Shown here piece after piece: positions 2,841-34,513 of a stretch of 64,000 nt of DNA. The DNA lies in IMG/VR virus record IMGVR_UViG_3300025137_000026, positions 1 to 64,000 of that record, one strand, 5' to 3'. Both the position numbers and the translations under genes were made by a program. Each line of letters opens with the position of its first letter. Position 1 is the first letter of the stretch. The notes beneath the pieces were generated by a model. It searched no databases and was not told the origin of the DNA. It worked only from the letters and a program-made list of their open reading frames with translations. Source of the stretch: a virus.

Positions 2841-5522
2841 ATGAGCATAAATGCGATAACTTTCGGTTCACCAGTATACTCACCTGCCTTTGCCGTTTCA
2901 TCTGGAGACGTTGGTGTAATCAAGTTGAGGAGTCGAGAGACAGCACCTCTTTCACATGAAACACTTGATGAGAATTTCACTAACTTAGCTAATAAGATCA
3001 ATGAAATACTTGGCCTTAATACACACTTAATAAGTGTAGGTACTGATGGGAAAATTGCATTTGCAAACTTATCTTTATCAGCAGGTGAAGGATTGAACGT
3101 AAGTGGTACTGGGCTATTCACCCACGGTGCAAGGGGTTCGACAATTTCTGGATACAGTAGTTCTGATTTAACAAGTGCCAATTTAAAATTCGTTGATGCC
3201 CTAGACTTTGACTCTTTTGGTCATGTAAAGGGATATAAGACTGGGACTTTAACGTTTGCTACTTCAGGTCATATCGGTGTTTCAAACACAGGGAATGCAG
3301 TAACAATTGCTTCCTCAGCATATGGAAGCGGAGATAGCCCTTCTTTCGGAACTATTACAGCGAGTAATTTGCATTTAGAAACCAGCACCGCTACAGACAT
3401 CTTGCGTTTTGGCCCTGACGGCAGATGGGGGTTCCAGAGGACGAATGACGACAGTCGTTATGTGTCGTTTAGCAGACAAATGAATAAAACTGCTAAAGAG
3501 GTTTTCACAATAGATGGCGATACTAGCTACGTAGGTATTGGCACTGGTGCTACAACCCCGTTTGCTCTTCTTACCGTTCAGCATAGCGTCTCGAAAGTGC
3601 AACTTGAAGTTGATCCTGACGCAGACAGAGTTTTAATTAGTTCATACAACCGAAGCGGTACTCCTGCTCCCAAGCCATTAAAATTTTCTGCTTCTGCCTA
3701 TAGCTTCAGTGACGGCAACGTCGGTATTGGGACTGGGACTGAGACTCCTAGTGAAAAATTAGATGTCAGGGGCAGTATTAATTTAAAAAGCGGACATAAT
3801 TTAACGTGGGATAATCATGGTCAAATTGCCGCAAACGCCACTCAAATGGGATTTTATATGGCAGATGCTCAAATTATGAGCATCAAACCTGACGGAGTAG
3901 GTGGCGGCAAAGTTGGTATTTCTACTACGAATCCTTCTACCACTTTTGATATCAATCAACCCAAAAATGATTCAGATGGTAATCCATTAGGCAAAGATGT
4001 GCTAATGACTTTTAGCAAGGGTGAGACAGGTGAAGCTACAATTGGTTTAAGTGGTGGTAGCTCACAAGTTCTTCTTGGTTCACTAGCGGATGACTTATGC
4101 ATTAGAAGTAACGGAAAAAATATTAGATTTGGTACTGCATCTGCCACTCGAACAGATATGACTATCGATTCCAACGGCAATGTTGGTATTGGTATGACTG
4201 AGCCTCAAAAGACGCTTGATGTCAAAGGCACTTTTGCAATCTCAAATAGCAAAACGAGTTATTGGGATTTTGACAGAGATGACTCTGATGGTTCATTAAA
4301 AATAGCTGATACTGGCACAGAGCGTGTGCGTATCGATTCCAACGGCAACGTCGGTATTGGTGCGCTTCCTAGTTATAAATTGGATGTCTTTACTGAAAGT
4401 AGTGTCGGATTGCGATTACAGAATCCCGCTACTAGCCCAGTAAATGGAAGCAATGATTCTCCAGCACTCCTTTTTGCAGCAAATGGATGGGATACAGATG
4501 CAGGATCACGGGGACATCTAGGACGGATTAGGCTTAGTGGATTATATTCAGGAGCAGCGGATCGTGGAAATACGCATCCAGTGATGGTCTTTGATTTAGA
4601 AACAAACGAAAACAACCCAGACGATACTGCAAGCCCCAAGATGTCGATAGGAATTGATGCTGTGGAAATTCCGACTAAATTAGGTATTGGTACTACTGCG
4701 ACTCCTAGCGCACCTCTTGAGGTTGTCCAGCCTACAGCAAATAAGTATGCTTTTATGGCTTCTCGTGCAGACGGAACAAGATTAGGTGTAATATATCAAG
4801 ATAGTAATTCCAATGGTACAATTGGGGCTTATAACGCTAACAATGAGGCTAAGGTCTGGCTTAACACCAATGGTGATTCTTATTTTACAGGCGGCAGAGT
4901 AGGTATTGGTACACCAGTTCCCGCAAGTGATTTAACAATTGCTACGAATGCGTCCGATGCAACTTTTAAGATAGGTAGTGTTTTGAGTCAAAATCCTACA
5001 GATACAAACTATCCACTGTTTGCGAACATGACCTATAGAAGTTATGGTGATTTTGAAATTCACAATAATTACGCAAGTGGGGATATGGAATTTCATGTGC
5101 AGACAGGTCGATATATAAAGCTCAATGGCAATGTTACGGTTGGCGGGAGTGAAGTAATAACAGCAGCTAATATTTCTAATTATGCTACTGGAGGTGGGGT
5201 TGCAATTGGAACTACGGCTACAACTGCATTAGCTGGGAATACGACAACGATCACTACTACACAAGCTAATGCGATTGCGACAAACTCTGCAAAGGTAGGA
5301 ATCACTACTGCACAAACAGGGAAGCTGGAAAATATAGAAGCTCTTGCAAACAATTATTCTTTACCCACGGCAACCTCTACAGTTTTAGGGGGAGTTAAGA
5401 TTGGTGCTAATCTATCAATTGATGCAAATAATGTTGTTTCTGTTCCTGTAGCTACTTCAACCTCATTTGGCGTAGTTAAAGTAAGTTTCTCTGGTGGAAC
5501 TCTAAATATTTCAACCACCTAA
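2841..5522 (+). CDS. Tail fibre / receptor-binding protein
   Basis: Repeated GNVGIG/GRVGIG-T..P...LDV units; N-terminal LSHETLDENF anchor; C-terminal LPTATSTVLGGVKIG repeats. Confidence 0.85.
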   Translation: MSINAITFGSPVYSPAFAVSSGDVGVIKLRSRETAPLSHETLDENFTNLANKINEILGLNTHLISVGTDGKIAFANLSLSAGEGLNVSGTGLFTHGARGSTISGYSSSDLTSANLKFVDALDFDSFGHVKGYKTGTLTFATSGHIGVSNTGNAVTIASSAYGSGDSPSFGTITASNLHLETSTATDILRFGPDGRWGFQRTNDDSRYVSFSRQMNKTAKEVFTIDGDTSYVGIGTGATTPFALLTVQHSVSKVQLEVDPDADRVLISSYNRSGTPAPKPLKFSASAYSFSDGNVGIGTGTETPSEKLDVRGSINLKSGHNLTWDNHGQIAANATQMGFYMADAQIMSIKPDGVGGGKVGISTTNPSTTFDINQPKNDSDGNPLGKDVLMTFSKGETGEATIGLSGGSSQVLLGSLADDLCIRSNGKNIRFGTASATRTDMTIDSNGNVGIGMTEPQKTLDVKGTFAISNSKTSYWDFDRDDSDGSLKIADTGTERVRIDSNGNVGIGALPSYKLDVFTESSVGLRLQNPATSPVNGSNDSPALLFAANGWDTDAGSRGHLGRIRLSGLYSGAADRGNTHPVMVFDLETNENNPDDTASPKMSIGIDAVEIPTKLGIGTTATPSAPLEVVQPTANKYAFMASRADGTRLGVIYQDSNSNGTIGAYNANNEAKVWLNTNGDSYFTGGRVGIGTPVPASDLTIATNASDATFKIGSVLSQNPTDTNYPLFANMTYRSYGDFEIHNNYASGDMEFHVQTGRYIKLNGNVTVGGSEVITAANISNYATGGGVAIGTTATTALAGNTTTITTTQANAIATNSAKVGITTAQTGKLENIEALANNYSLPTATSTVLGGVKIGANLSIDANNVVSVPVATSTSFGVVKVSFSGGTLNISTT

Positions 5523-28894: not shown

Positions 28895-31381
28895 TCAAGC
28901 TAATTGTTTATCTTGTATTTCAACATCAGCTTGTACGGCTAGCTTGCCTTTTAGCTTATGCCACTTGGCTTCCATTTTAATTTCAGGCTCAGTATCGACA
29001 CGCTCACTATCGAAGCTAAGGAAATGCTCAGCGAATATTTCACTGGCAGAACCCTCCTTGAAGTCAGCAGGTACATACTCACCTAGTAGGCAGATAGTTG
29101 CTGCATCCCTCTTGTCTGCAAGCTTATCGAACATTGCTTCCTCGATGGTATCTTGATTGAGCAGAACCTTGATATTCACATCCTTGGTTGAATTGAGTCT
29201 GTATACTCTACCCATAGCCTGATGAAATGCACCATAGCTCCAGTCAAACGAGCCTATGATCATATTGTTACACTCATTGAAACTATGACCAACTGCACAT
29301 CTTGAACCAAAGGCAAGAACTCTAGTCTTACCACTCTTAAAGTTGTTAGCTTCCCTTACATGGTTACTAGCCTCTGAATCAATTCTTGAGCATTCTATAC
29401 CAGCTTCACCAAGCCTCTTGATTAACTCCGTTGTCTGCCCGCATGAGGACGAGACATGGATAATCTGCTCACCTCGCTCTAGTGTCTCTCCGATAAGTTC
29501 AAGAGTAGTGATCAGCTTGGGATTGAAGTTAGAGTTTACCCATCCGTTATTGAAGTATCTACCAACAGGATCCGCGCAGATACCTCTGAGTCTTTGTAAC
29601 TGCACACCATACTTAGTCTTGGGGTCACGGAATGGAATATTTCTAATGTCAAGGTTGTGGGCATAGAGTTTCTTCTGTGCAAACCCAAGTGGTACACGGA
29701 TAGTCTCAACATTGCAGTCAACCACATCAGGATTGCACTCCTCCTTGGATATGTAGGCAACGATAGATTTAAGTACCTTGAGCAATCTTTGAGTCTGACT
29801 GATTGTTGGTGAAGTCTTTTGGCATACTGACCCATTGCCACGTAAGGACTCCTCGGTGTAGTCTCGCTCTTGAGTTAGAAATGTAGTTCTGAATGCAGTT
29901 TCAGACTCAATAGTGTAAGGCCATCTAGGATTACTTTTCTCTCCATGATACCAATTAGGAACTGCTAACCATCCGGCAAGTGGGAAAATATTGGGTAACA
30001 TGTTCGGCACTGGTGTAGCTGTTAAGCAGTAACGATACTTAGGTTGTAATCGTATTAAGCAACTAGTGATTGCTGAATCTAAGTTCTGCATGATATGTGC
30101 CTCATCAATCAGAGCCATATCAAACTGATGCTTAGTTAGAGTGCAGAGGCTAGGCTTAACAATACAAGTGAATCCATTGCGAGTCTGACCTACACCTCTA
30201 TGCCATTGATTTTCTGTAGCAGGTGGCTTCTCCTTGTCAAAGGGTGCATCAAGGTCAAAGTCTCTGAGCCGTGCGCGAAACTTCTCCTCACGCTTATTAG
30301 CAGCCCAAGCCTTAGGTATCTTCTCGAATGCCTTAGTAGTACAGAATGCATTAGGGTAAGTAATATAAACTCCTGGGGGAAGAGTACCACTCGGTCTAAG
30401 TAAAGACTTGTAATCATCCAATGTAAAAAGGTTATGCACCTTAGTATCAGGAGAGAACTTATTAATCTCTGCTACCCACTGGGCAGGATCATGCTTAGTG
30501 GAATTACCCGAAGCATCCTTCACCGTACCCTTAGGAGCAACAATCAGACATCTCTTAGAGTTCTTAGCATTCTTTATGGCAATAGCCATGCAAGTCTTAC
30601 CAGTGCCTACATCACCACTTACCATAGCCTCATCCACACAAAGGACTCGAGCAATGTAATCCTTCTGCCCAGGGTAGAACGGAATACCATTCAACTCTTC
30701 CAACTGCGTGAGCTTATGGTTGTAGTGTTCAAACAGCTTTGGTCTTAGTTCAGCAACCGTCTTAATATCTAGCATATCAAAGAAGCTCCACACCTTTGTA
30801 CTAGGGAACTCACCTTGTCCGACTGGATTATCTCGGAATGTGAACTCTTGGTTATCATCATCCTTGAATACATAACCAGCATCCACTCCATATCTCTCAA
30901 TCTCATGATCAATGACATAGGTTCTGCCGTCTGCATCGGTATGCATCTTCTTGCTAGATAACGGACGAGTATAAGAGTACTTGAGCCTACGGAACTTGTA
31001 CTTATTTCCCTTAGTTATCTTTGGCCATGAGCCTTCACCGAAGAACTTAAAGTCCTTGGGGCGCTCAGGTTGCTCGAGTGCTTCCAGTACTTTCACTTCA
31101 TCAATCATGCCAACCATCTCATAGGGAGTCATTGGGCGTATTGGTGGAGAGGTGAACTTGGATTCATTTAAAGCCTCATTGATTGAAGCTTTGGAGTTAG
31201 GCTCGATGTCTACGGAATCATGGTTGTATAACTCCTGTAGTACTCGTCTGTCTGTAGACACTACTACTAGTGCCATTGGAGTCATGCCATCCACATAGGA
31301 CAGCTTAGCATCGATGCTTTTATTTTTGGTAGGCTTGGTACGTATAGCACCAAGTGGGTTAAGCCACATATTATATTTCAT
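28895..31381 (-). CDS. SNF2-family (SF2) helicase/ATPase
   Basis: GDVGTGKT, IDEAH, LTATP..N, QAMGRVYR. Confidence 0.9.
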   Translation of the reverse strand: MKYNMWLNPLGAIRTKPTKNKSIDAKLSYVDGMTPMALVVVSTDRRVLQELYNHDSVDIEPNSKASINEALNESKFTSPPIRPMTPYEMVGMIDEVKVLEALEQPERPKDFKFFGEGSWPKITKGNKYKFRRLKYSYTRPLSSKKMHTDADGRTYVIDHEIERYGVDAGYVFKDDDNQEFTFRDNPVGQGEFPSTKVWSFFDMLDIKTVAELRPKLFEHYNHKLTQLEELNGIPFYPGQKDYIARVLCVDEAMVSGDVGTGKTCMAIAIKNAKNSKRCLIVAPKGTVKDASGNSTKHDPAQWVAEINKFSPDTKVHNLFTLDDYKSLLRPSGTLPPGVYITYPNAFCTTKAFEKIPKAWAANKREEKFRARLRDFDLDAPFDKEKPPATENQWHRGVGQTRNGFTCIVKPSLCTLTKHQFDMALIDEAHIMQNLDSAITSCLIRLQPKYRYCLTATPVPNMLPNIFPLAGWLAVPNWYHGEKSNPRWPYTIESETAFRTTFLTQERDYTEESLRGNGSVCQKTSPTISQTQRLLKVLKSIVAYISKEECNPDVVDCNVETIRVPLGFAQKKLYAHNLDIRNIPFRDPKTKYGVQLQRLRGICADPVGRYFNNGWVNSNFNPKLITTLELIGETLERGEQIIHVSSSCGQTTELIKRLGEAGIECSRIDSEASNHVREANNFKSGKTRVLAFGSRCAVGHSFNECNNMIIGSFDWSYGAFHQAMGRVYRLNSTKDVNIKVLLNQDTIEEAMFDKLADKRDAATICLLGEYVPADFKEGSASEIFAEHFLSFDSERVDTEPEIKMEAKWHKLKGKLAVQADVEIQDKQLA

Positions 31382-31914: not shown

Positions 31915-32438
31915 TCTGCTATAGAGATATACATGGATTCAACAGCGTTAGACATTTCCTCTCGGACAACCTCTCGCACTATCTCCCTTACCCTCTCCTC
32001 GGTTATACCAGCATTGTTATGCTTAAGTAATGTAGATATAGCAGAAGCTATCTCTAGTTGCTCTGGCTCCCTCTTGGTAACCTTACCACTCTTGGTTACC
32101 TTTGTAGGCTTAGGCTTCTCCTCAACGATAGGCTGAGTAGGATCGGAAACCTCAACATATGCCTCGCGATCAATAGGATTACCCTTAATGAACGAGAGTA
32201 TATCCTTGTAGACCTTCTCCTTTGATGCGTCCAACTGATCATTGAACTCATCATTATCCTCATGCCAACCACCCTTGGGTACAGGGAGGAAGTCTCCATC
32301 TGTATCCATGACTAAGGCTTGCAGAGACTCTGCATCCTCATGGAGGTTATCTTGAAGCCATGCATTGACTGCACCTCTGACGTTATTATTAGCCTTTTGA
32401 AGGGCAATTATCTTTTTGTATGTATCACTCGTAGTCAT
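31911..32438 (-). CDS. Hypothetical protein (likely start MTTSDTY at 32438)
   Basis: GTAACCCAA motif 23 nt upstream of this ATG. Confidence 0.65.
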   Translation of the reverse strand: MTTSDTYKKIIALQKANNNVRGAVNAWLQDNLHEDAESLQALVMDTDGDFLPVPKGGWHEDNDEFNDQLDASKEKVYKDILSFIKGNPIDREAYVEVSDPTQPIVEEKPKPTKVTKSGKVTKREPEQLEIASAISTLLKHNNAGITEERVREIVREVVREEMSNAVESMYISIAE

Positions 32439-32457
32439 AGTTATTTTTATTTTTGGG

Positions 32458-34089
32458 TTACATTTTAATGAACTCTGCAAACAATATTCTGTATGCACGT
32501 TCAGCTTGGGCTGGCACTATGCCATTCCCTAAGAGTCTGAGTCTTGGGACTCGTAGAGCCATGATTTCGGGAGAAGCGTAGTATTCTTGTGGAGTCCTTG
32601 GATTTGCTCCACCCATGCCGGATTCAACTTGCCGTGTATATTGAGTCTCCCCAAGTTCCTCGCTAGTGATGCTTGATTGCTGTTCACTTCGCTCTTCGGA
32701 TTCTTGTTGTGATCGTACTGGGCTGGCGTCCCCCATTGTGGTAGACGAGCTAAGTCCCGACCCAGGCACTTCTGATTCGAGTCCGTTGCTGTCCTTGCTC
32801 CCTCCACATGATCCGATGCTTGTGGGGTTGCCCACTTCTCGGGATTCTCCATATGTTCCACTGCGTCCCTCAGTTTCGCTCCGTACTTCGTTCCGTTCTC
32901 CCTCGTTGCCGTGAAGCCCGTGTCCGTCATCTTCACATCCTTGGCTACTCCTCCTTCTACTAGTCCTGCTACCGTTGGTGTTGGGAACATTATCTCGGGA
33001 TTCATCTCGGGATTCACTACATCTTCCCTCAGATTCTTGCATCCTCCCTTCTTCTTGTTGCGAGCAAGTGCTTCCCCTGTCTTCGGTGGAAGTACATCCA
33101 TCGTGTTTGGGGTTGCCCATGCTTTGGCGGATGCTTCCTTCGATTGTTGAATAGCCGTCTCCGTTATCGCCACATGGCTGAGCATCTTCTGCTTCTGATT
33201 GCCCAACGGACGAGTTGCTTTCTCCTCCCCCGTGGTTGGAGTTGGCCAAGTCTTCTGATCCGATAGAGCTACTGCCGACAGACTTGGATTCTGTCTGTTC
33301 TTCTCCGACTCGGGAGTCCCATCCGTCTTCCCCGTCCTTGGGGTAGGCCATGATGACCCTTGGTTCTTCCCATCCGTGCTGAGCTTCCCCTGGACGTGAA
33401 GGCCATGTACCTGCTCGCCAAGGTTGCTCTTCCCCCGATCCGTCAAGCAAGCTCGGGAGTCTTGCTCCTTCGGTGTCCCCCACTGATCGTTCAGACTCAT
33501 CTGGGTTTGCGTTTCGGAAGAGCATGAAGACACGCTTACGTTGGTGAGGCGCGCCTTCTTCACTCGCGCTGACCACTGTGAACGCACCCTCGTAACCAAT
33601 TTCTTCCATTCGTCCCAAGACATATTTGAGTACGCTTGTGTTCTGCTCGCCACCGAACTTACAACTGATGATGCCCTCGACATTTTCGAGTGCGACCCAG
33701 TTGGGACGGCAAAGATCAACTCCGTTTGCAATGAAGGGGAAGAGGTGTCTTGGGTCTTCAGTTCCTTTCCGAATCCCTGACGATGAGAAGGGCTGGCAAG
33801 GGAAGCCCGCAGATAAGATGTCCACGCATCCACGGAACTTTCCGTATGGGAACTCTTTAACATCCGTAAAGACAGGAGCCTCAGCCAATTCACCCTCTTC
33901 AATCTTAGCAACCAAGTTCGCGCAAGCGTATCCTTCCCGTTCCACGTATGCGATTTCTCGCAAGTTTGGGAATATTCCTCTAAGTCCTCTGCCCATTCCT
34001 TCGTATCCCGAACACATAGAGAGGTGAGTAACGACGTTATTGGTAAGTATACCTTGTATTTGCTTTTCTTCATAGTTTTCATCATTCAT
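32458..34089 (-). CDS. C5-cytosine DNA methyltransferase, catalytic (alpha) polypeptide
   Basis: Motif I (SMCSGYEG), IV (GFPCQPFS), VI (ENV), VIII (QRKRVF), X (RLRLLGNGIVP); motif IX absent from this frame. Confidence 0.9.
   Translation of the reverse strand: MNDENYEEKQIQGILTNNVVTHLSMCSGYEGMGRGLRGIFPNLREIAYVEREGYACANLVAKIEEGELAEAPVFTDVKEFPYGKFRGCVDILSAGFPCQPFSSSGIRKGTEDPRHLFPFIANGVDLCRPNWVALENVEGIISCKFGGEQNTSVLKYVLGRMEEIGYEGAFTVVSASEEGAPHQRKRVFMLFRNANPDESERSVGDTEGARLPSLLDGSGEEQPWRAGTWPSRPGEAQHGWEEPRVIMAYPKDGEDGWDSRVGEEQTESKSVGSSSIGSEDLANSNHGGGESNSSVGQSEAEDAQPCGDNGDGYSTIEGSIRQSMGNPKHDGCTSTEDRGSTCSQQEEGRMQESEGRCSESRDESRDNVPNTNGSRTSRRRSSQGCEDDGHGLHGNEGERNEVRSETEGRSGTYGESREVGNPTSIGSCGGSKDSNGLESEVPGSGLSSSTTMGDASPVRSQQESEERSEQQSSITSEELGETQYTRQVESGMGGANPRTPQEYYASPEIMALRVPRLRLLGNGIVPAQAERAYRILFAEFIKM
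32529..34085 (-). CDS. Overlapping alternative-frame MTase partner (beta) polypeptide with 7 WxTP modules and motif IX
   Basis: 518-codon open frame nested in the MTase; WGTP, WPTP, WPTP, WATP, FPTP, WATP, WGTP; C-terminal GKLNPAWVEQIQGL; true start uncertain. Confidence 0.8.
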   Translation of the reverse strand: MMKTMKKSKYKVYLPITSLLTSLCVRDTKEWAEDLEEYSQTCEKSHTWNGKDTLARTWLLRLKRVNWLRLLSLRMLKSSHTESSVDAWTSYLRASLASPSHRQGFGKELKTQDTSSPSLQTELIFAVPTGSHSKMSRASSVVSSVASRTQAYSNMSWDEWKKLVTRVRSQWSARVKKARLTNVSVSSCSSETQTQMSLNDQWGTPKEQDSRACLTDRGKSNLGEQVHGLHVQGKLSTDGKNQGSSWPTPRTGKTDGTPESEKNRQNPSLSAVALSDQKTWPTPTTGEEKATRPLGNQKQKMLSHVAITETAIQQSKEASAKAWATPNTMDVLPPKTGEALARNKKKGGCKNLREDVVNPEMNPEIMFPTPTVAGLVEGGVAKDVKMTDTGFTATRENGTKYGAKLRDAVEHMENPEKWATPQASDHVEGARTATDSNQKCLGRDLARLPQWGTPAQYDHNKNPKSEVNSNQASLARNLGRLNIHGKLNPAWVEQIQGLHKNTTLLPKSWLYESQDSDS

Positions 34090-34135
34090 TTTATTTATTG
34101 TTATATTTATATTTAGGTTACAATCTTATTATTCC

Positions 34136-34513
34136 TTATAGTCCGTACCTCGCTAGTTCAGCCTCTTCCTTGGCAGATTCCATGGCAGACTCTATAGCAT
34201 CCTCAAGTTCAACTTGCATAGCTATAGACTCCATCACTTTATCCTTACCCTCTTTGAGCAGAGTAAAGATATTTACCTCGCAAGCATCCAGCAGGCACTT
34301 CCCATCTTTATATTTACCACTGACATTAAGCTCAGATAAATCTGTTAGCTTTACATCAACAGCTTGATGTCCATTACCAGGGTGCCACACATAAGTGTCT
34401 CCATAAGGGAGAGAACCCACAGCAGTATCCTCGACACCAAACTCCACCGTACCCGAAGCGATTACATCGATTCCAAACACGGTCATTTCTTCTTGTTCAA
34501 ACGTATGTTCCAT
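34136..34513 (-). CDS. Hypothetical early protein
   Basis: 125-aa ORF with GTAACCTAA 24 nt upstream. Confidence 0.7.
   Translation of the reverse strand: MEHTFEQEEMTVFGIDVIASGTVEFGVEDTAVGSLPYGDTYVWHPGNGHQAVDVKLTDLSELNVSGKYKDGKCLLDACEVNIFTLLKEGKDKVMESIAMQVELEDAIESAMESAKEEAELARYGL

What the first reader, a model, noticed from the sequence alone, without database searches (positions are those of the whole stretch)
32458..34089. Dual-frame C5 methyltransferase with 7 tandem WxTP specificity-like modules in the overlapping frame
Seen: two frames stay open over ~1.55 kb (543 and 518 codons). The alpha frame has motifs I, IV, VI, VIII and X, but a low-complexity middle and no motif IX. The +1 frame carries seven ~30-50-aa modules (WGTPKEQD, WPTPRTG, WPTPTTGE, WATPNTMD, FPTPTVA, WATPQASD, WGTPAQYD), each ending in a (N/S/M/K/C)L...(V/L) pattern, followed by motif IX-like GKLNPAWVEQIQGL. 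The locus is visibly more GC-rich than its flanks. Known: M.EcoHK31I is a heterodimer whose motif-IX subunit is encoded in an alternative frame, and Bacillus phage multispecific MTases stack several TRDs. Inference: a multispecific anti-restriction MTase whose target modules are added or swapped as cassettes while both frames must remain stop-free, i.e. an expandable, overprinted specificity array.
Basis: partly seen in the sequence, partly recalled or inferred. Interest (0 to 1): 0.85.

Follow-up and report, generated by a model that had tools for sequence, protein, structure and literature searches.

The report
Two-frame phage cytosine methyltransferase gene
One 1.6-kb gene of a marine phage is kept readable in two overlapping frames that most likely give the catalytic chain and the DNA-recognition chain of one DNA cytosine methyltransferase, and the recognition chain is built from seven swappable modules.

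Summary
On the minus strand, alpha (32458-34089, 543 aa) and beta (32529-34085, 518 aa, +1 frame) are both open; the third sense frame has 40 stops.

This is a family trait. In 62 of 62 complete, distinct relatives both frames are open. Motif IV lies in frame f, the motif IX-like LNPxWVEQLMG in f+1, and motif X back in f. The two start codons lie at most 16 nt apart (43 loci: ATGTGG).

Substitution patterns show alpha is selected over motifs I-VIII, a WPSRP...PRV motif and motif X. Beta is selected over the modules and motif IX. Many alpha synonymous sites are invariant exactly where beta has invariant residues, so beta is also translated and selected across the catalytic region.

The 256 WxTPxxxD modules fall into at least 26 recurrent types, never repeated within a gene, giving 49 architectures in 62 loci.

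A complex model docks beta's motif IX on alpha (ipSAE 0.84, best control 0.00), though likeness to solved single-chain enzymes may explain that.

Best reading: an M.EcoHK31I-like two-chain C5 methyltransferase, fully overprinted, with a cassette array of probable target-recognition modules. Multispecificity is untested. This scan has noted the two-frame layout on other DNA in at least 10 genomes.

The parts
32458..34089 (-). alpha ORF, 543 aa: catalytic chain of a C5 DNA methyltransferase (motifs I-VIII, a long disordered middle, WPSRP motif, motif X)
32529..34085 (-). beta ORF, 518 aa, +1 frame relative to alpha: N-terminal part over the catalytic region, seven WxTP modules, motif IX-like segment
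34078..34089 (-). shared start region ATGAATGATG: alpha ATG at 34089, beta ATG at 34085 (and 34082), behind an A/T-rich leader with no clear Shine-Dalgarno sequence
33490..34032 (-). alpha aa 20-200: folded catalytic (large) domain with motifs I, IV, VI and VIII; pLDDT 85-97; matches M.HhaI
33546..33623 (-). beta aa 155-180, MSWDEWKKLVTRVRSQWSARVKKARL: a helix (pLDDT 90-95) dual-coded with alpha motifs VII-VIII. Alpha synonymous sites here are invariant in 61 loci
33351..33482 (-). beta module 1 (type F, WGTPKEQD..., aa 202-245); alpha's WPSRP motif lies in its tail
33355..33405 (-). alpha aa 229-245, WPSRPGEAQHGWEEPRV: a conserved alpha-frame motif inside the otherwise unconstrained middle. 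It is predicted to touch beta's motif IX
33249..33350 (-). beta module 2 (type L, WPTPRTGK..., aa 246-279)
33120..33248 (-). beta module 3 (type R, WPTPTTGE..., aa 280-322); absent from the close relative L003
32988..33119 (-). beta module 4 (type B, WATPNTMD..., aa 323-366); found in 39 of 62 loci
32835..32987 (-). beta module 5 (type A, FPTPTVAG...KLRDAV, aa 367-417); found in 51 of 62 loci; predicted three strands plus a helix, pLDDT 83-88
32736..32834 (-). beta module 6 (type G, WATPQASD..., aa 418-450)
32634..32735 (-). beta module 7 (type S, WGTPAQYD..., aa 451-484)
32592..32627 (-). beta aa 487-498, LNPAWVEQIQGL: motif IX-like segment (family consensus LNPxWVEQLMGLPxGWT), selected in the beta frame and predicted to dock on alpha's motif X
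32512..32535 (-). alpha aa 519-526, LLGNGIVP: motif X, at the start of the C-terminal helices (pLDDT 84-93). From 32528 down it is no longer overlapped by beta

Best explanation
The gene is dual-coded and makes two polypeptides from one shared initiation region. Together they form one C5 DNA methyltransferase.

Alpha supplies the large catalytic, AdoMet-binding domain: motifs I-VIII at the N-terminus and the motif X helices at the C-terminus. These are joined by about 300 residues that are unconstrained and disordered, apart from one conserved WPSRP...PRV motif.

Beta, read one base further on, supplies the small DNA-recognition domain. It has a conserved basic helix (aa 155-180), seven different WxTPxxxD modules of 33-51 aa, and a motif IX-like helix that docks on alpha's motif X and WPSRP motif.

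Both frames must stay stop-free for two reasons. Alpha's motif X lies downstream of beta's modules, and beta starts beside alpha's start codon. That need explains the T-poor, GC-rich composition.

The modules behave as independent cassettes, gained, lost and reordered between phages. They are most likely separate target-recognition domains, which would let the phage methylate several sequences and escape several host restriction enzymes.

Shown: the dual open frames, the frame-specific selection, the shared start and the cassette pattern. Inferred: that two proteins are made and bind, that modules are recognition domains, multispecificity and the anti-restriction role.
For: (1) Layout across the family.
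- In about 65 distinct phage loci, motif IV is in frame f, the IX-like motif in f+1 and motif X in f.
- Both frames are open end to end while the third frame has 10-40 stops.
- There are 0 stops in 62 of 62 loci. Codon shuffles expect 2.9 and 6.7 stops, with P(0) about 3% and 0.4% per locus.
- Distant loci in marine MAGs show the same layout.

(2) Starts.
- 43 of 62 loci have ATGTGG: a beta ATG, an alpha GTG 2 nt later, and a TAA just upstream in the alpha frame.
- About 15, including the window, have the alpha ATG 4-16 nt before the beta ATG.

(3) Frame-specific selection, window against L002.
- N-terminal part, alpha positions 1/2/3: 0.032/0.013/0.145.
- Middle, beta positions 3/1/2: 0.331/0.102/0.075.
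- C-terminal part, alpha positions 1/2/3: 0.09/0.04/0.35.

(4) True dual coding.
- 18 of 77 conserved alpha columns in the N-terminal part have nearly invariant synonymous sites. Examples are G165 GGT 61/61, A175 GCG 61/61, P72 CCT 61/61 and E162 GAA 61/61.
- These sit exactly where beta has invariant W160, K161, V164, R174 and K176. Other four-fold sites vary freely.
- In modules A and B, beta's synonymous sites vary freely.

(5) Variable partitions, which fit a non-covalent complex.
- L030 has alpha = I-VIII + WPARP motif and beta = modules + IX + X.
- 11 database proteins carry IX and X in one chain.

(6) Structure models.
- Alpha alone folds as the catalytic domain plus C-terminal helices with a disordered middle.
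- It matches M.HhaI at E 3.7e-11.
- The complex model gives ipSAE 0.84 (three runs: 0.83-0.85) against a best control of 0.00. That mark was reached by 58 of 80 solved complexes and 2 of 110 mismatched pairs. The runs agree in at least 13% of contacts and the partner's pLDDT is 41-65.
- The interface is alpha 54-67, 175-184, 225-248 and 503-527 with beta 448-463 and 477-511.

(7) Cassettes.
- 256 modules fall into at least 26 recurrent types.
- There are 0 within-gene duplicates against 34 expected (minimum 22 in 2000 shuffles).
- There are 49 architectures in 62 loci, with 1-7 modules per gene, and no type is universal.

(8) Precedent. M.EcoHK31I needs two chains, and its beta is encoded in another frame inside alpha (PMC2836561, PMC3404938).
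Against: - No protein-level or activity data exist; translation of both frames is inferred from selection patterns.
- The complex score may come from likeness to solved single-chain C5 methyltransferases, where motifs IX and X touch within one chain. The partner's fold is uncertain (pLDDT under 50 in two runs). My own alignments were used, so the calibration holds only roughly.
- The modules have no detectable similarity to the recognition domains of the Bacillus phage multispecific enzymes, or to any solved structure or Pfam family.
- Most modules are predicted with low confidence.
- Some module types have a fixed position (C and D always late), so not every module is freely interchangeable.
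- The window has no clear Shine-Dalgarno sequence.
- Loci are related by descent and recombine, so the counts are not fully independent, and the lower synonymous rate in the N-terminal part could partly reflect recombination history.
Confidence: 0.72

Rival explanations
1. Two chains are made as above, but the modules are structural repeats that together form one DNA-binding domain. That domain would have a single specificity, or relaxed specificity, and the modules would not be independent target-recognition domains.
For: - All modules share one core, W-x-T-P-x-x-x-D ... L-x-x-x-V, and link into one cluster at loose thresholds.
- Module types A and B occur in most loci (51 and 39 of 62).
- Some types hold fixed positions.
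- There is no similarity to known recognition domains.
Against: - Genes work with 1 to 7 modules.
- No type is universal: six loci lack any A-like module.
- No type is ever repeated within a gene (0 observed against 34 expected).
- A and B occur in both orders (18 and 17 loci).
A repeat scaffold would tolerate duplicates and would keep its order.
Confidence: 0.2
2. One fused enzyme is made by programmed frameshifts, alpha to beta after motif VIII and back to alpha before motif X, so the second frame is only a recoding track.
For: - The canonical motif order (I-VIII, variable region, IX, X) is restored only by joining segments of both frames.
- The A-rich QRKR codons could slip.
- A few database proteins are such chimeras (P0019, P0082).
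Against: - Defined shift sites would not need either frame open outside the segment used, yet both are open end to end in 62 of 62 loci.
- Beta has its own conserved ATG beside alpha's start.
- Beta is under protein-level selection upstream of any such shift site.
- Including alpha's WPSRP motif would need four shifts.
- The chimeras differ in their junctions and each lacks a motif.
- RNA-library and DNA contigs show no indel.
- I did not scan systematically for slippery heptamers.
Confidence: 0.04
3. Beta is an overprinted protein with a job unrelated to methylation, for example another anti-defence factor, and alpha alone is the methyltransferase.
For: - Beta matches no Pfam or NCBIfam family.
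- Overprinted accessory genes are common in viruses (own knowledge).
Against: - Alpha lacks motif IX and any conserved recognition region. Its middle evolves without amino-acid constraint.
- Beta ends in a segment of motif IX type placed just before alpha's motif X in every locus, and it is predicted to dock there.
- In some relatives IX and X are in one chain.
Confidence: 0.03
4. The double reading frame is an artefact (assembly error or decaying pseudogene), or a by-product of T-poor composition.
For: The middle of the gene is T-poor (13-14%), and that alone lowers stop frequency.
Against: - The third sense frame has 40 stops in the same sequence.
- Codon shuffles that keep the composition still expect 4.5 and 9.6 stops.
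- The layout recurs in more than 60 independent assemblies and in independent runs without indels.
Confidence: 0.01

Closest known systems
M.EcoHK31I (E. coli HK31, YGGCCR), two-polypeptide C5 methyltransferase (Lee, Kam and Shaw 1995, as described in PMC2836561 and PMC3404938)
   Same: [quoted passage not shown] Both chains are needed. The N-terminal part of beta matters for association with alpha.
   Different: - Here the overlap is almost total (518 of 543 codons), with both starts 4 nt apart, instead of a small nested beta.
- The selected variable region (modules) lies in beta, whereas in M.EcoHK31I the predicted recognition domain is assigned to alpha.
- Beta carries up to seven modules.
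- Alpha's middle is a 300-residue unconstrained linker.
M.AquI (CYCGRG), alpha/beta C5 methyltransferase (PMC3404938)
   Same: A natural split in the variable region into a catalytic chain and a chain with the distal conserved motifs.
   Different: In M.AquI the small chain has motifs IX and X. In the window, X is on alpha. The relative L030 and about 11 database proteins do have the AquI-like partition, but there too beta overlaps the catalytic region.
Multispecific C5 methyltransferases of Bacillus phages SPR, phi3T, rho11s and H2 (Trautner and co-workers; titles cited in PMC12707154 and PMC8936443; details from my own knowledge)
   Same: They are phage-borne and orphan. A tandem row of short recognition units, about 40-50 aa each, lies between motifs VIII and IX. 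Different phages carry different sets.
   Different: Those enzymes are single chains in one frame. No sequence similarity was found to the modules here: tblastn against 50,697 phage records found only Phage C75C1. Multispecific activity is not shown here.
Other two-frame phage and prophage C5 methyltransferase genes noted earlier in this scan (e1-5994779, e1-5889472, e1-5326148 and others)
   Same: Same layout: catalytic motifs in one frame, WxTP units and a motif IX-like segment in the +1 frame.
   Different: These are unpublished AI notes on other DNA. This window has the largest module count I saw in the set I examined (7 modules; range 1-7). It is also where the cassette statistics, the shared start and the synonymous-site test were worked out.

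Membership tests
C5 DNA methyltransferase (PF00145 / TIGR00675) | Motifs I (AdoMet binding), IV (PCQ catalytic Cys), VI (ENV) and VIII (QxRxR) in the canonical order and fold | tested here: met
   Alpha aa 22-190 match PF00145 at E 2.9e-28 and M.HhaI 72-173 at E 7e-12. The fold matches M.HhaI at E 3.7e-11. Motifs are located.
C5 DNA methyltransferase (PF00145 / TIGR00675) | Motifs IX and X and a recognition region in the same polypeptide | tested here: not met
   X (LLGNGIVP) is in alpha. The IX-like segment and the selected variable region are in the +1 frame. The Pfam and TIGR matches stop at profile position about 159 of 324-329.
M.EcoHK31I-type heterodimeric C5 methyltransferase | Beta chain encoded in an alternative frame within the alpha gene; alpha has I-VIII and X, beta has IX | tested here: met
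   description of M.EcoHK31I in PMC2836561.
M.EcoHK31I-type heterodimeric C5 methyltransferase | Two separate polypeptides that must associate for activity | not testable with these tools
   Supported indirectly by separate conserved start codons, selection on both frames and a complex model (ipSAE 0.84 against a best control of 0.00, possibly from likeness to single-chain structures).
M.EcoHK31I-type heterodimeric C5 methyltransferase | Recognition domain on alpha | tested here: not met
   Alpha's middle evolves without amino-acid constraint. Differences concentrate at alpha codon position 1, which is beta position 3 (0.331 against 0.10 and 0.075). The conserved modules are in beta.
M.EcoHK31I-type heterodimeric C5 methyltransferase | Sequence homology to M.EcoHK31I alpha and beta | not tested
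M.AquI-type split (alpha I-VIII; beta IX-X) | Motif X on the same chain as motif IX | tested here: not met
   In the window X is in the alpha frame. The feature is met in the relative L030 and in P0079, P0255 and others.
Multispecific phage C5 methyltransferases (SPR type) | Several non-identical recognition units in tandem between motifs VIII and IX | tested here: inconclusive
   Seven different modules of 33-51 aa lie between VIII and IX, with no type repeated. That they recognise DNA targets is not shown.
Multispecific phage C5 methyltransferases (SPR type) | Sequence relatedness of the units; single polypeptide | tested here: not met
   tblastn of beta against all phage records hits only Phage C75C1. 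The units are in a different frame from the catalytic motifs.
Programmed ribosomal frameshift gene | The second frame lacks its own start and is needed only downstream of a defined shift site | tested here: not met
   Beta has a conserved ATG within 16 nt of alpha's start in 62 of 62 loci. It is open and selected upstream of any possible shift site. Slippery sites were not scanned systematically.

The most novel reading that the evidence does not exclude
A whole clade of phage C5 methyltransferases is written as two almost fully overlapping genes of 300-550 codons, translated from one shared start region. Both frames are under protein-level selection over the catalytic core. The second chain is an expandable array of up to seven independently exchangeable target-recognition cassettes, each of which must also be stop-free in the other frame. 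That would be one of the longest conserved same-strand gene overlaps known in bacteria or phages, and a cassette-based way to widen anti-restriction methylation.
Probability: 0.45. Interest if true: 0.85.

Novelty: new variant of a known kind. Interest (0 to 1): 0.75.

Why it matters
- **Annotation.** Gene callers and depositors annotate only one of the two frames. Phage C75C1 and Paenibacillus pAP1 show alpha only, while hundreds of database entries are beta-frame 'hypothetical proteins'. Half of a widespread enzyme is therefore invisible or unnamed.
- **Overlapping genes.** A conserved overlap of more than 500 codons, with both frames selected over part of it, is a strong natural test case for how overprinted genes arise and are maintained. 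Relatives with a nested beta (Paenibacillus) and with full overlap suggest a path of stepwise 5' extension.
- **Phage-host conflict and tools.** If each module is a recognition domain, the family offers dozens of small portable DNA-recognition cassettes for cytosine methylation. It would also give a readable record of the restriction systems that marine phages face.

Tried and rejected
Their overlap with an alpha frame was inferred only from back-translation logic and from loci of the same types.
- **Solved structures and family libraries for beta.** There was no match in the PDB with a beta profile. Pfam and NCBIfam gave nothing for beta. PHROGs gave only a weak hit (phrog_31772, E 0.009). 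The ESM Atlas search of beta 1-195 gave scores of 0.87-0.88, below the level worth quoting.
- **Literature.** Searches for this layout in phages, and for Phage C75C1, found nothing relevant. The original papers on M.EcoHK31I and on the multispecific enzymes are not held.
- **Canonical single-chain relatives.** I looked for relatives with WxTP modules in frame with motifs I-VIII. Among 258 retrieved proteins, only 6 carry motif IV together with modules. All look like frame-switch chimeras that lack one or more motifs.
- **Loose clustering of modules** at E below 1e-4 merged 187 modules into one group. It was replaced by a threshold of 50% identity over 70% of the length.
- **AlphaFold2 of beta alone** gave mean pLDDT 51.6, too low for a fold search of the modules.
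- **The complex job** used beta 190-518 because of the size limit, so the conserved beta helix 155-180 was not tested for contact with alpha.
- **Internal start for beta.** A start at the conserved NMS site was rejected. The only SD-like GGAG lies about 15 nt upstream, by my reading of a back-translated consensus rather than a measured spacing, and the frame is open and selected upstream of it.
- **Read laying** used contigs only. They cannot show transcript ends, strand or rare slippage products.
Full report
**What is there.** The window belongs to a 76,944-bp IMG/VR virus record rated complete. Near-identical DNA occurs in seawater metagenomes of at least ten studies.

On the minus strand there are two ORFs: alpha (32458..34089, 543 aa) and beta (32529..34085, 518 aa). 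Beta is in the +1 frame and its ATG lies 4 nt after alpha's. The third sense frame has 40 stops over the same span.

Alpha matches the C5 methyltransferase family only over aa 22-190 (PF00145, E 2.9e-28; M.HhaI 72-173). It has motifs I, IV, VI and VIII at the N-terminus and X at the C-terminus.

Beta carries seven [WF]xTP units at aa 202-484, followed by LNPAWVEQIQGL. The gene is GC-rich and T-poor compared with its flanks.

Independent DNA and RNA-library contigs lie on the gene without any indel.

**The layout is a family trait.**
- Phage C75C1 (OQ984151.1) shares only about 71% nucleotide identity over 30% of the query. Its annotated methyltransferase gene has the same two open frames.
- Eighty IMG/VR loci were fetched with a beta alignment. 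In essentially all of them motif IV is in frame f, the IX-like LNPxWVEQLMG in f+1 and motif X back in f. Both frames are open end to end, and the third frame has 10-40 stops.
- In 62 of 62 complete distinct loci neither frame has a stop. Synonymous-codon shuffles that keep each gene's own codon usage expect 2.9 stops in beta over alpha's N-terminal part and 6.7 in alpha over beta's middle. The chance of zero is about 3% and 0.4% per locus.
- More distant loci in marine MAGs show the same layout.
- The annotated 'DNA cytosine methyltransferase' of Paenibacillus polymyxa plasmid pAP1 has a nested +1 ORF with four WxTP units and LNPTWVECLMGFPLDWT.
- A search of 5.8 billion proteins found 550 relatives of beta's module region. 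Most were called in the beta frame and carry no Pfam domain. A search of 1.84 billion representatives found 353 clusters.

**Which frame is selected where.** Between the window and its closest relative L002, differences fall as follows:

| Region | Positions compared | Difference fractions |
|---|---|---|
| N-terminal part | alpha 1/2/3 | 0.032 / 0.013 / 0.145 |
| Middle | beta 3/1/2 | 0.331 / 0.102 / 0.075 |
| Non-overlapped C-terminus | alpha 1/2/3 | 0.09 / 0.04 / 0.35 |

In the motif IX region differences again peak at beta position 3. So alpha is the selected frame at both ends, and beta is selected over the modules and motif IX. Alpha's middle evolves nearly freely.

There is one exception in that middle. 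The alpha-frame motif WPSRPGEAQHGWEEPRV (aa 229-245) is conserved in at least 90% of relatives, with the codon-position pattern of the alpha frame. Its position relative to motif IX differs between clades, because it travels in the tail of particular modules.

**Beta is translated through the catalytic region.** In the alpha N-terminal alignment of 61 loci, 18 of 77 conserved columns have almost invariant synonymous sites. Other four-fold sites in the same gene vary freely.

Examples of invariant sites are Y156 TAT 61/61, V157 GTC 60/61, E162 GAA 61/61, G165 GGT 61/61, A175 GCG 61/61, E177 GAA 61/61, P72 CCT 61/61 and E52 GAA 61/61. These sites are the second codon positions of beta's invariant residues M155, S156, W160, K161, V164, R174 and K176.

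AlphaFold2 predicts this beta segment (aa 157-184) as a helix with pLDDT 90-95. By contrast, beta's synonymous sites in modules A and B vary freely (mean heterozygosity 0.41 and 0.59).

This is protein-level selection on both frames over alpha motifs VII-VIII, which is true dual coding. It places the start of beta translation upstream of that region.

**Shared start.** In 43 of 62 loci the sequence is ATGTGG. The ATG opens beta (MWILPK...), the overlapping GTG opens alpha, a TAA lies just upstream in the alpha frame, and one purine-rich Shine-Dalgarno-like element precedes both. In about 15 loci, including the window, the alpha ATG lies 4-16 nt before the beta ATG.

**Why two chains and not frameshifting.**
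- Defined shift sites would not require either frame to be open elsewhere.
- They would not require a conserved beta start.
- They would not produce selection on beta upstream of motif VIII.
- Functional segments alternate alpha / beta / alpha (WPSRP) / beta (IX) / alpha (X), so a single chain would need four shifts.
- Relatives partition the pieces differently. L030 has alpha = I-VIII + WPARP motif and beta = modules + IX + X. Eleven database proteins carry IX and X in one chain. L020 and L022 have stops in alpha's middle but keep the alpha-frame WPARP and X segments. Such freedom fits a non-covalent complex.

The known precedents are M.EcoHK31I, where beta lies in another frame inside alpha, and M.AquI (PMC2836561, PMC3404938).

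**Structure models.** Alpha alone folds as a confident catalytic domain (aa 20-200, pLDDT 85-97) plus C-terminal helices (507-542, pLDDT 84-93). Residues 204-504 have pLDDT below 50. The fold matches M.HhaI at E 3.7e-11.

The complex of alpha with beta 190-518 scored ipSAE 0.84 (three runs: 0.83, 0.84, 0.85) against a best control of 0.00. That mark was reached by 58 of 80 solved complexes and 2 of 110 mismatched pairs. The runs agree in at least 13% of contacts, and the partner's pLDDT is 41-65.

The interface joins beta 477-511 (motif IX) and 448-463 to alpha 503-527 (motif X), 225-248 (WPSRP motif), 175-184 and 54-67.

Two cautions apply. Motifs IX and X touch within solved single-chain enzymes, so this pass may reflect that likeness. 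My own alignments were used, so the calibration holds only roughly.

**The modules.**
- The 62 loci hold 256 modules (1-7 per gene, median 45 aa), with the core (K/N)-W-[PA]-T-[PA]-x-x-x-D.
- At 50% identity they form at least 26 recurrent types plus 27 singletons.
- No type occurs twice in one gene. Label shuffles expect 34 duplicates, with a minimum of 22 in 2000.
- There are 49 architectures in 62 loci.
- A and B occur in both orders (18:17), while C and D are always late.
- No type is universal.
- The window reads F-L-R-B-A-G-S. Its relative L003 reads F-L-B-A-T-G, and C75C1 reads A-B-J-?-E-Q.

This non-redundant, recombining pattern is what independent recognition units would show, and it parallels the Bacillus phage multispecific enzymes (own knowledge). 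There is no sequence similarity to them and no activity data, so multispecificity stays an inference.

**Verdict.** They are strengthened by the comparative tests.

The thing is a new variant of a known kind: an M.EcoHK31I-like two-chain C5 methyltransferase. It differs by near-total overprinting, a shared start, dual selection over the catalytic core and a cassette array in the second chain.

Earlier notes of this scan report the same two-frame layout on other DNA in at least ten genomes, so it is widespread. I found no published description in the held library.

Noticed in passing
L098 1005-2540 (Paenibacillus polymyxa plasmid pAP1, NZ_CP040830.1): The annotated 497-aa 'DNA cytosine methyltransferase' is an alpha-type chain: I-VIII, a low-complexity middle, WPAGLGQPQRDWEPPRT, then X. 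A nested +1 ORF (1228-2079, 283 aa) carries four WxTP units and LNPTWVECLMGFPLDWT. Here beta starts about 60 codons inside alpha, an intermediate between the EcoHK31I-like nested form and the full overlap seen in the window.
   Followed up: partly
L001 3964-5406 (Phage C75C1, OQ984151.1): Only the alpha frame is annotated (480 aa, 'DNA methyltransferase'). A 459-aa beta ORF (3971-5350) with six modules is not annotated.
   Followed up: partly
L020, L022, L030, L088: These loci are exceptions to the rule. L020 and L022 have many stops in alpha's middle but keep intact alpha-frame WPARP and motif X segments downstream. L030 has alpha ending after I-VIII + WPARP, with motif X in the beta frame. 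L088 (a Blastopirellula MAG) has a compact 299-aa alpha and a beta frame broken in the N-terminal part.
   Followed up: partly
P0019, P0082, P0074, P0225, P0003, P0011 (database proteins): These are single-chain chimeras that switch from the alpha to the beta frame (and back, in P0019) at different points. Each lacks at least one motif. They may be sequencing indels or natural frame-switch variants. P0019 switches inside the A-rich QRKR codons.
   Followed up: no
window 28895-31381 (-): The 828-aa ORF just downstream matches phage DNA helicase families (phrog_62, E 6.7e-44). The seven small neighbouring ORFs between 31639 and 35984 match no PHROG family.
   Followed up: partly
window 32300-34300: Contigs of two metatranscriptomic libraries of one seawater sample (X8, X10) cover most of the gene with 95-99% identity and no indel. 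DNA carry-over cannot be excluded.
   Followed up: partly
window 32634-33482, alpha frame: Alpha's middle carries a periodic E-L-[AG]-[ND]-[ST] 'shadow' motif. It is simply the alpha-frame reading of beta's N-W-[AP]-T-P module starts (junction consensus AG aac TGG cCa ACa CC). This conserved junction could serve as the homology for module exchange.
   Followed up: partly
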